Source of the DNA: an uncultured Parachlamydiaceae bacterium | Lineage (GTDB): Bacteria > Chlamydiota > Chlamydiia > Chlamydiales > Parachlamydiaceae | Reading direction: 5' to 3' | Length of the DNA stretch: 64,000 bases | Assembly (NCBI GenBank): GCA_963745935.1 | Contig: CAVUZO010000008.1 | Coordinates: forward strand, 49,207-113,206 | Shown here: positions 32,075-32,541 of the stretch, in pieces | How positions within the stretch are numbered: the stretch's first letter is position 1 | Layout of the letters: each line of letters opens with the position of its first letter | Translations under genes and position numbers: made by a program | The notes under the pieces: generated by a model | The model's input: only the letters and a program-made list of their open reading frames with translations | Database searches by the model: none | Told to the model about the DNA's origin: nothing

Positions 32075-32082
32075 GATTTAAA

Positions 32083-32402
32083 ACCCGACTTGCCCCCTAC
32101 ATCACGCTTAAAACCCGATTTGCGCCCTACATCACGCTTAAACTTTGGCCGAACTTAGCAAGTTGCCTGATAAGCTCCGAAGGCCAAGTCGCGACTTGGC
32201 CAAGGGGATTAGCAGAGCAAATTGCTAAGTACAGGCAAGTTTAAGCGTGATGTAGGGGGCAAGTCGGGTTTAAACTTTGGCCGAACTTAGCAAGTTGCCT
32301 GATAAGCTCCGAAGGCCAAGTCGTGACTTGGCCAAGGGGATTTAGCAGAGCAAATTGCTAATTGCAGGCAAGTTTAAGCGCGATGTAGGGGGCAAGTCGG
32401 GT
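32083..32402. mobile_element. MITE-like element, type B, composite (outer copy carrying a nested or duplicated copy)
   Basis: Left ends at 32083-32107 and 32113-32137. Two ~95% identical core-plus-right-end units end at 32269 and 32402. TTAAA at 32078-82, 32108-12, 32270-74 and 32403-07. Confidence 0.8.
32113..32269. mobile_element. inner type-B MITE-like copy
   Basis: 157 bp bounded by ACCCGATTTGCGCCCTACATCACGC and GCGTGATGTAGGGGGCAAGTCGGGT, flanked by TTAAA/TTAAA. Central perfect hairpin GGCCAAGTCGCGACTTGGCC. Confidence 0.7.
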
Positions 32403-32541
32403 TTAAATTGTAAGGCTATATAAGCATCTCTCTAAAGAATCTAGTTGGGCACTGAAGAATGTTTTGCTTATAGTGTTTTACTTTGCTTGCCTGTTTATTT
32501 CCTGGCGTGCTAGGATGCGAAGAGGATAGAATAAAAGCCGA

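What the first reader, a model, noticed from the sequence alone, without database searches (positions are those of the whole stretch)
32078..32407. Composite MITE-like element showing an apparent nested insertion with TTAAA target-site duplication
Directly after the stop of the HEAT-repeat gene the sequence reads TTAAA | ACCCGACTTGCCCCCTACATCACGC | TTAAA | ACCCGATTTGCGCCCTACATCACGC TTAAA core ...GCGTGATGTAGGGGGCAAGTCGGGT | TTAAA | second core (~95% identical) ...GCGCGATGTAGGGGGCAAGTCGGGT | TTAAA. In an uninterrupted unit the junction between left end and core is CACGC-TTAAA-CTTTGGCC. In the composite, a complete 157-bp unit sits exactly at that TTAAA, and TTAAA is present on both sides. That is what a transposition into a sister copy with a 5-bp duplication would leave. 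The window contains no transposase, so the element would be non-autonomous. I do not recognise these termini from any described IS family, though I cannot search.
Basis: seen in the sequence. Interest (0 to 1): 0.78.

Follow-up and report, generated by a model that had tools for sequence, protein, structure and literature searches.

The report
Nested MITE pair in a chlamydial genome
The flagged 330 bp is a small non-coding mobile element that has inserted into a sister copy of itself at a TTAAA site, part of a previously undescribed but otherwise ordinary miniature transposon family in an uncultured chlamydia-like bacterium.

Summary
Window 32078-32407 reads TTAAA-L1-TTAAA-[L2-core1-R1]-TTAAA-core2-R2-TTAAA. 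A complete 157-bp unit sits at the internal TTAAA of a second unit that is about 96% identical.

They are 98% identical to each other. They carry the same 17-nt terminal inverted repeat, ACCCGAYTTGCSCCCTA, and the same TTAAA on both sides, but a completely unrelated core. A fifth copy is inferred from a protein on another contig whose last 48 residues are a translated element.

Three relatives have short HEAT-sctJ spacers without the element. The closest one has an unoccupied TTAAA next to the stop codon. Pfam finds no transposase among the window's ORFs.

Best reading: a non-autonomous TIR transposon (MITE) family that targets TTWAA, most simply with a 5-bp duplication, and one nested insertion.

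The parent transposase and the genome-wide copy number could not be determined.

This is a new member of a known kind, of modest interest.

The parts
32078..32082 (+). TTAAA, left copy of the target duplication of the outer type A unit
32083..32107 (+). L1: left end of the outer (interrupted) type A unit. 17-nt family TIR plus 8 nt of type-A-specific inverted repeat.
   Evidence: The junction with the HEAT stop is reproduced in Logan contig L007.
32108..32112 (+). TTAAA: internal target site of the outer unit, and left duplication copy of the inner unit
32113..32269 (+). Inner, complete type A unit (157 bp): L2, core1, R1
   Evidence: With its flanking TTAAA copies (32108-32274) it folds as a hairpin, dG -69.1, z -14.8.
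32270..32274 (+). TTAAA, right duplication copy of the inner unit
32275..32402 (+). Remainder of the outer type A unit: core2 and R2
   Evidence: The R2 variant GCGCGATG joined to the sctJ flank is reproduced in Logan contig L001.
32403..32407 (+). TTAAA, right copy of the target duplication of the outer unit
28615..28788 (-). Type B element B1: 164 bp at 28620-28783, plus TTTAA on each side on the + strand. Same 17-nt termini, unrelated core. Lies 61 bp upstream of lpdA.
54816..54989 (+). Type B element B2: 164 bp at 54821-54984, plus TTAAA on each side. 98.3% identical to B1 in reverse complement.
   Evidence: Hairpin dG -70.8, z -17.7.
31172..32077 (+). HEAT-repeat gene. Its stop codon lies 3 nt before the outer TTAAA.
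   Evidence: P0001 is 100% identical.
32487..32516 (+). Promoter-like TTGCCT-18-TAGGAT upstream of sctJ (32554-33513). It is conserved in relatives as TTGCGC-17-TAGGAT and lies downstream of the composite, so it is left intact.
   Evidence: An inference from conservation, not an experimental promoter.

Best explanation
The window carries a family of non-autonomous terminal-inverted-repeat transposons (MITEs) in an uncultured Parachlamydiales-like genome.

Members are defined by a 17-bp terminal inverted repeat, ACCCGAYTTGCSCCCTA. They fall into at least two subfamilies with unrelated cores that are themselves hairpin-forming: type A of 157 bp and type B of 164 bp.

A transposase encoded elsewhere, not identified here, would bind the shared termini. 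It would integrate the element at the odd-length palindrome TTWAA with staggered cuts that duplicate the pentamer. The finding is one such event. A complete type A copy integrated into the TTAAA that lies between the left end and the core of a resident type A copy, which had itself inserted at a TTAAA 3 nt after the HEAT gene stop and upstream of the sctJ (type III secretion) promoter.

Shown:
- terminal inverted repeats
- identical flanking pentamers at all four complete copies
- dispersed, near-identical copies
- absence from relatives
- no coding capacity

Inferred:
- DDE-type cut-and-paste or copy chemistry
- the 5-bp stagger
- trans-mobilisation
For: 1. All eight termini in the window share TTWAA plus ACCCGAYTTGCSCCCTA and then diverge by subfamily. 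A and B share nothing but the 22 nt at each end. That is the pattern of different deletion derivatives served by one transposase.
2. All four complete units are bracketed by the same pentamer as a direct repeat, not an inverted one.
3. In the P0121 copy the residues Q-L-K-P-D imply TTA AAA CCC GAC. That places TTAAA next to the end that carries TTTAA in B1 and B2. The central base therefore flips with the target rather than with the element, as expected for a symmetric TTWAA target.
4. Copies are young: B1 versus B2 is 98.3% identical, and A inner versus A outer is about 96%.
5. Removing the inner unit plus one TTAAA restores a full-length unit with the same architecture. The predicted fold is a hairpin nested in a hairpin.
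6. Relatives have 44-106-bp spacers without the element. The reconstituted empty site aligns with them, and L019 has a free TTAAA at the homologous spot.
7. No ORF inside the elements exceeds 59 aa. There is no transposase in the window. No Rfam family matches.
8. The L1-TTAAA-L2 and R1-TTAAA-core2 junctions are new sequences. An assembler can only output them if reads contain them.
9. TTWAA occurs 278 times in the window, 50 times intergenic. A neutral landing in a sister copy, which offers two such sites, is unremarkable once tens of insertions have happened.
Against: - No parent IS with these termini was found, and no IS family could be assigned.
- Type A itself is known only from this one locus. 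A type-A-specific 20-mer found only chance matches in GTDB species representatives and in JGI metagenome contigs.
- The true empty-site comparisons come from organisms only 72-74% identical in the neighbouring protein, so the pre-insertion sequence is inferred, not observed.
- The pentamer is identical at every copy. Without a same-species empty site it could formally be part of the element.
- The P0121 argument rests on a codon inference, because its DNA could not be fetched.
- The interior of the composite is not confirmed by an independent assembly. The Logan contigs stop at its edges.
Confidence: 0.72

Rival explanations
1. The elements are MITEs, but the composite arose locally from one unit by two unequal-recombination or slippage events at the 5-bp TTAAA microhomologies. 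One event duplicated L-TTAAA and the other duplicated core-R-TTAAA. No transposition into a sister copy was involved.
For: Every module boundary in the composite is a TTAAA, so microhomology is available at each breakpoint. No second locus with type A is known.
Against: This needs two independent events where the nested insertion needs one. The extra material is exactly a complete element bounded by the family termini. L1 and L2 differ at 2 of 25 positions, and the cores differ by 4 substitutions and an indel. Recent local duplication would not predict that. L2 has the GATTTGCGCCCTA variant found at the left ends of type B copies, while L1 has the other variant, as if the two units came from different family members.
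Confidence: 0.12
2. The repeats are host-maintained or Y1-transposase-mobilised palindromic elements (REP/REPIN-, PATE- or RPE-like). TTAAA is then part of the element or a one-sided target, not a duplication. Their role would be structural, for example a terminator or insulator hairpin between operons.
For: Each unit is an almost perfect 160-170-nt hairpin. All three loci are intergenic and lie just upstream of + strand genes. Type A contains GTAG/CTAC next to the terminus. One copy is translated as a protein tail, as Rickettsia palindromic elements are.
Against: The 17-25-nt end modules are not self-complementary, as REPs are. The two ends are inverted copies of each other, not same-strand subterminal hairpins. 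GTAG is absent from type B, which has CTAG/CTAT. Pfam found no Y1 transposase or RAYT in the window. The outer pentamers are direct repeats, and the central base appears to flip in the P0121 copy. The element is absent from the same spacer in three relatives, so it is not a conserved regulatory structure. The terminator scan found no intrinsic-terminator-like site at 31900-32700.
Confidence: 0.1
3. The composite is an assembly artefact: a single unit, or two separate loci, wrongly joined or duplicated.
For: Short-read Logan contigs break at the composite edges and do not span it. The window contains several frameshifted genes that could hint at assembly errors.
Against: The two units differ at 7 positions, so this is not a simple duplication of one sequence. 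The L1-L2 and R1-core2 junction sequences must exist in reads. The locus lies in the middle of a 226,626-bp contig. Logan contigs match the window with 0-1 mismatches over 3-8 kb. ORFs of 794-1060 aa are intact, so the error rate is not generally high.
Confidence: 0.04

Closest known systems
Bacterial MITEs derived from DDE insertion sequences, for example MITECca01 of Cardinium (IS982-derived, PMC9769881), Correia elements of Neisseria and RUP of Streptococcus pneumoniae (IS630-type). The last two are from my own knowledge.
   Same: Size of 100-300 bp, terminal inverted repeats, flanking target duplication, no coding capacity, mostly intergenic, several subfamilies sharing termini, and found in a host-associated bacterium rich in mobile DNA.
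   Different: The termini (ACCCGAYTTGCSCCCTA) and the TTWAA target do not match those elements. Correia and RUP duplicate TA. MITECca01 is about 240 bp and has its parent ISCca4 in the same genome. Here no parent IS is known.
Tn3-derived inverted-repeat miniature elements (TIMEs) and other 5-bp-duplicating transposons (own knowledge)
   Same: A 5-bp duplication of an A+T-rich target.
   Different: Tn3-family ends are about 38 bp and begin with GGGG. These begin with ACCCGA, and only 17 bp are shared between subfamilies.
REPIN / REP elements mobilised by RAYT, and IS200/IS605-derived PATEs (PMC3733652 for GTAG/CGTC-tagged REPs)
   Same: Long hairpin-forming intergenic repeats. Type A has a GTAG near its end.
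   Different: The end modules are not palindromic in themselves. There are true terminal inverted repeats and direct flanking repeats. The GTAG is not conserved in type B. No Y1 transposase is nearby.
Rickettsia palindromic elements (RPE) (own knowledge)
   Same: Palindromic repeats of about 100-170 bp in an obligate intracellular bacterium. One copy is read through as the C-terminal tail of a protein (P0121).
   Different: RPEs are mainly found in-frame inside genes and have no recognised TIR or target duplication. Here 3 of 4 known loci are intergenic and TIR plus duplication are clear. Sequence relatedness to RPEs was not tested.
Nested MITE insertions in plants and cyanobacteria (own knowledge)
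   Same: One MITE sits inside a sister copy at the family's preferred target, with the duplication visible on both sides.
   Different: None in principle. This is the same phenomenon in a new family and a new host lineage.

Membership tests
MITE (non-autonomous TIR transposon) | Short length (<300-500 bp) and no transposase ORF | tested here: met
   Units are 157 and 164 bp. The longest ORF touching them is 59 aa. The six-frame translation matched no transposase.
MITE (non-autonomous TIR transposon) | Terminal inverted repeats | tested here: met
   A 17-nt TIR is shared by all eight ends. It extends to 33-38 nt within type A and to 75 nt at 80-81% complementarity within type B.
MITE (non-autonomous TIR transposon) | Target-site duplication flanking each copy | tested here: met
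   TTAAA lies on both sides of all four complete units, as TTTAA/TTTAA on the + strand for B1. The length of 5 versus 3 or 1 bp is unresolved. No same-species empty site is available. A relative has a free TTAAA at the homologous position.
MITE (non-autonomous TIR transposon) | Multiple dispersed, similar copies | tested here: met
   Four units at three loci in 64 kb, plus one inferred on another contig. The genome-wide number is unknown.
MITE (non-autonomous TIR transposon) | Parent autonomous IS with matching termini | not testable with these tools
   No termini pair spaced at IS length in the window. No transposase in the window. The rest of the source genome could not be read.
REP / REPIN (RAYT-associated) | 20-40-nt imperfect palindromic unit with a conserved GTAG or CGTC tag, and a RAYT gene flanked by REPs | tested here: not met
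   The end modules are not self-complementary. The whole unit folds only as one long hairpin. GTAG is present in type A only. No Y1 transposase among the window ORFs.
IS200/IS605-derived PATE | Subterminal hairpins on one strand, no TIR, no duplication, target only at the left flank | tested here: not met
   The ends are inverted copies of each other, and the same pentamer is on both flanks.
Tn3-derived TIME | About 38-bp IR beginning with GGGG, and a 5-bp duplication | tested here: not met
   The duplication length is compatible. The ends begin with ACCCGA and share only 17 nt. The GGGG criterion is from my own knowledge.
IS630/Tc1-mariner-derived MITE (Correia, RUP, Nezha) | TA duplication | tested here: not met
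   No placement of the element boundaries gives TA on both sides. Only 5-, 3- (TAA) or 1-bp (A) duplications within TTAAA fit (reading).
IS982-derived MITE (a lead only: IS982 ends begin with AC, duplication 3-9 bp, recalled from the ISfinder summary) | Termini matching an IS982-family element | not tested
   No IS982 terminal sequence was available for comparison. The literature search gave nothing usable.

The most novel reading that the evidence does not exclude
The family is mobilised by a bacterial transposase of an unassigned or undescribed lineage with strict specificity for the odd palindrome TTWAA, active recently in environmental chlamydiae. Alternatively or in addition, the hairpins have been co-opted as insulators between the lipA-HEAT transcription unit and the sctJ type III secretion operon.
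Probability: 0.12. Interest if true: 0.5.

Novelty: new member of a known kind. Interest (0 to 1): 0.3.

Why it matters
It adds a defined MITE family to the Chlamydiota: termini, target, and two subfamilies. Small non-autonomous elements are hardly documented in this phylum. A 2022 paper on Cardinium noted how under-reported MITEs are in intracellular symbionts (PMC9769881).

Practically, the 17-nt terminus is a ready probe. It can be used to count copies, find the parent transposase, explain contig breaks in short-read assemblies of this lineage, and date insertions near the type III secretion genes.

It does not change any concept. Nested MITE insertions and target-specific duplications are well known.

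Tried and rejected
1. I scanned GTDB species genomes and JGI metagenome contigs with CCCGAYTTGCSCCCTACATC. There were only five hits, all inside unrelated coding sequence with no extension. The generic 17-mer was therefore never scanned in those collections. This is the main gap.
2. Three viral-contig scans. The generic terminus gave seven unpaired matches without TTAAA flanks, about the number I estimate from chance alone. The core patterns gave none.
3. blastn of both element types against PLSDB plasmids found no match.
4. Rfam found nothing for the elements.
5. A concatenated six-frame translation of both types was searched against 5.8 billion proteins. It gave one hit, P0121. Its DNA was not retrievable, and it has no homologue, so no protein-level empty site is available.
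6. An exhaustive HMMER search with the 44-aa open frame of type A gave only two weak, partial hits at 36-46% identity, which are not element copies.
7. I tried to walk outward with Logan contigs. Three look-ups failed, probably because of start-codon choice. The two that worked added 961 bp beyond the window, with no new copy. They also showed that contig breaks occur away from repeats, so breaks cannot be used to count copies.
8. Literature searches for chlamydial MITEs, for TTAAA duplications, for the terminus strings and for IS982 ends found nothing relevant.
9. A 4-mismatch terminus-like site upstream of lpdA in L008/L009 was inspected and rejected. It has no hairpin, no TTAAA and no partner.
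10. I considered piggyBac-like (TTAA) and IS1380-like (ends CC) readings. Both were rejected because no boundary placement gives matching duplications.

Full report
**1. Observation**

T stands for TTAAA. The order is T, L1 (32083-32107), T, L2 (32113-32137), T, core1, R1 (32245-32269), T, core2, R2 (32378-32402), T.

- The repeat finder returns the two 30-nt left modules, the two cores with right ends, and four long inverted-repeat pairs.
- The 25-nt terminus occurs four times in the window, against none in 100 shuffles. The 49-nt core seed occurs twice, against none.
- The inner unit, 32113-32269, is 157 bp.
- Joining L1, one TTAAA and 32275-32402 gives a 158-bp unit. It differs from the inner unit by six substitutions and one indel, about 96% identity.
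- One unit folds as a nearly perfect hairpin (DNA dG -69.1 kcal/mol, z -14.8). The composite folds as a hairpin inside a hairpin (z -23.4).

**2. Context**

The neighbouring genes are lpdA, lipA, a HEAT-repeat gene, then sctJ, an unnamed gene, sctL, sctR and sctT. This is the conserved chlamydial type III secretion cluster.

The HEAT protein is 100% identical to P0001, which sits on a 226,626-bp contig held by NCBI, ENA and Logan. The next best homologues are only 72-75% identical. One of them carries the name Parachlamydia sp. MAG. The source is therefore an uncultured Parachlamydiales-like organism without close sequenced relatives.

The composite starts 3 nt after the HEAT stop and ends 146 nt before the sctJ ATG.

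**3.

A low-stringency search of the rest of the window with one unit found two more elements, at 28620-28783 and 54821-54984. I call these type B.

- They are 164 bp long and 98.3% identical to each other in opposite orientation.
- They form hairpins (dG -70.8, z -17.7).
- They share with type A only the outermost 17 nt, ACCCGAYTTGCSCCCTA, and the flanking pentamer. The interiors are unrelated.
- B2 is flanked by TTAAA and TTAAA. B1 is flanked by TTTAA and TTTAA on the + strand, which is TTAAA in the element's own orientation.
- My first search missed them, because the 25-mer includes 8 type-A-specific bases.

Two unrelated cores carried between the same short inverted termini, with the same direct repeat outside, is the signature of non-autonomous derivatives served by one transposase.

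**4. A fifth copy**

I concatenated the six-frame translations of one A and one B unit and searched 5.8 billion proteins. The single hit, P0121, is a 954-aa protein on a 328,981-bp contig (NCBI/ENA). Its last 48 residues...QLKPDLRPINDSSDARLFWRLKRGNFRLLYSSMSKIAPFKPPKNRIIS, are the translated right half of a type B element. The family is therefore dispersed beyond this contig.

The junction residues L-K-P-D are most simply TTA AAA CCC GAC. That puts TTAAA next to the end that has TTTAA beside it in B1 and B2. The central base of the pentamer therefore goes with the target, not with the element.

TTAAA and TTTAA are the two forms of the odd-length palindrome TTWAA. A symmetric transposase dimer making 5-bp staggered cuts would be expected to recognise such a site. 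This step is an inference from a protein sequence. The DNA could not be fetched, and P0121 has no homologues for comparison.

**5. Empty sites**

Three relatives were read across the same spacer.

| Locus | Source | HEAT identity | HEAT-sctJ spacer |
|---|---|---|---|
| L008 | Logan SRR21359861 | 72% | 44 bp |
| L009 | GCA_021372155.1 | 72% | 106 bp |
| L019 | Logan ERR10755947 | 74% | 100 bp |
| window | source contig | 100% | 476 bp |

None of the three contains the element or its termini.

- With the composite and one TTAAA removed, the window's spacer is 151 bp and aligns colinearly with the relatives.
- The left flank up to TTAAA aligns with GTGATTAAA in L019. That relative therefore has an unoccupied TTAAA 1 nt after its stop codon.
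- The right flank TTGTAAGG aligns with CTGTAAAGG in L009.
- A promoter-like motif is conserved just upstream of sctJ: TTGCGC-17-TAGGAT in L008 and L009, with the TAGGAT hexamer also in L019, and TTGCCT-18-TAGGAT at 32487-32516 in the window. It lies downstream of the insertion and is intact.

These comparisons are across large evolutionary distances. They show absence and colinearity, not a base-perfect empty site.

**6. No autonomous partner in the window**

- The only terminus matches in the window (up to 3 mismatches) are the eight already paired at about 160-nt spacing.
- The 61 non-overlapping ORFs of at least 110 aa were put through Pfam, apart from one 120-aa antisense ORF that overlaps sctR. 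None has a transposase, integrase or Y1 domain.
- The elements themselves hold no ORF above 59 aa.
- No Rfam family matches them.

**7. Nested insertion versus alternatives**

Only one parse of the composite yields complete elements. A full unit, L2-core1-R1, sits at the TTAAA between L1 and core2, with TTAAA on both sides. A single tandem duplication cannot produce L-L-core-R-core-R. Two separate unequal exchanges at 5-bp microhomologies would be needed.

The two units differ at seven positions. L2 carries the GATTTGCGCCCTA variant seen at the left ends of type B copies, while L1 carries GACTTGCCCCCTA. This fits two family members better than a recent local duplication.

Type A contains two internal TTWAA sites. 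Type B has none. The window has 278 TTWAA sites, 50 of them intergenic. A neutral landing inside a sister copy is not improbable once the family has made tens of insertions.

An assembly artefact is unlikely for four reasons.
- The copies differ.
- The L1-L2 and R1-core2 junction sequences must be present in reads.
- The locus is internal to a long contig.
- Independent Logan contigs agree with the window at 0-1 mismatches per 3-8 kb.

They do stop at the composite's edges, however.

**8. Limits of the reading**

- The terminus begins with A and the target ends in AA. The same sequence therefore fits a 5-bp duplication (TTAAA, TIR ACCCGA...), a 3-bp one (TAA, TIR AACCCGA...) or a 1-bp one. In all cases the pre-insertion site is TTAAA.
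- No IS family could be assigned. Ends starting with AC and a 3-9-bp duplication recall the ISfinder description of IS982. That is memory, not a test.
- Tn3-type ends (GGGG), IS630-type TA duplications, piggyBac-type TTAA and REP/RAYT features were checked against the sequence and do not fit.
- Type A outside this locus was not found. The type-A-specific 20-mer found only chance matches in GTDB representatives and JGI metagenomes.
- Plasmid, viral and literature searches were all negative. So was an exhaustive protein search with the open frame of type A.

**9. Verdict**

This is a new MITE family, with two subfamilies, a TTWAA target and one nested insertion, in an environmental chlamydial genome.

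It is a new member of a well-known kind of element. It is useful for annotating and assembling this lineage and for finding its transposase, but it is not conceptually surprising. Interest 0.3.

Noticed in passing
window 43087-43354: A second, unrelated MITE-like element lies directly after the terminator of the histone-like hctA (Hc1) gene. It has 46-nt arms that are 78% complementary, termini TATAGGTAAAC.../...GTTACCTATA, AATTAA on both sides and a G+C-rich interior. DNA fold z is -9.3 and there is no Rfam match. It is a single copy in the window.
   Followed up: partly
window 7314-9061; 13555-14970; 17816-19570; 21879-22529: Several housekeeping genes are broken. argS is in three frames. 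An EPSP-synthase-like gene is in two pieces. lepA is in at least five frameshifted pieces. gnd retains only its C-terminal domain. ORFs of 794-1060 aa elsewhere are intact, which suggests real pseudogenes (genome decay) rather than a uniformly error-prone assembly. A broken argS is odd for an essential gene.
   Followed up: partly
window 32487-32516; L008 about 10895-10925; L009 about 10945-10975; L019 about 1232-1237: A promoter-like motif is conserved upstream of sctJ across relatives that are otherwise diverged in this spacer. It reads TTGCGC-17-TAGGAT in L008 and L009, and TTGCCT-18-TAGGAT in the window. The TAGGAT hexamer is also present in L019. It is a candidate promoter of the sctJ type III secretion operon.
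   Followed up: partly
L019 1173-1207: In the closest relative, the HEAT stop codon is embedded in a perfect 16-bp-stem hairpin, TGATTAAAACTTGTGCGCTGCACAAGTTTTAATCA. The hairpin contains TTAAA and TTTAA, so the insertion site in the window may originally have been a terminator-like hairpin.
   Followed up: no
P0121 (contig of 328,981 bp, not in the window): An orphan 954-aa alanine/lysine-rich protein with no homologue at E <= 1e-10 in 5.8 billion proteins. Its C-terminal 48 residues are encoded by a type B element. An element stop codon has been replaced by a lysine codon, which extends the reading frame.
   Followed up: partly
window 10095-11801 and 1126-2028: Eukaryote-like proteins: BTB/POZ plus F-box-associated LRR (568 aa), and a weak RhoGAP match (300 aa). 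These are typical candidate effectors of amoeba-associated chlamydiae.
   Followed up: no
L010, L012, L013, L014, L016 (IMG/VR contigs): Five viral contigs share an identical stretch, AAGTTAACCCGATTTGCCCCCTACACTTCAG, that contains the 17-nt terminus with one mismatch. It is unpaired and has no TTAAA. I judged it a chance match within one conserved phage sequence.
   Followed up: partly
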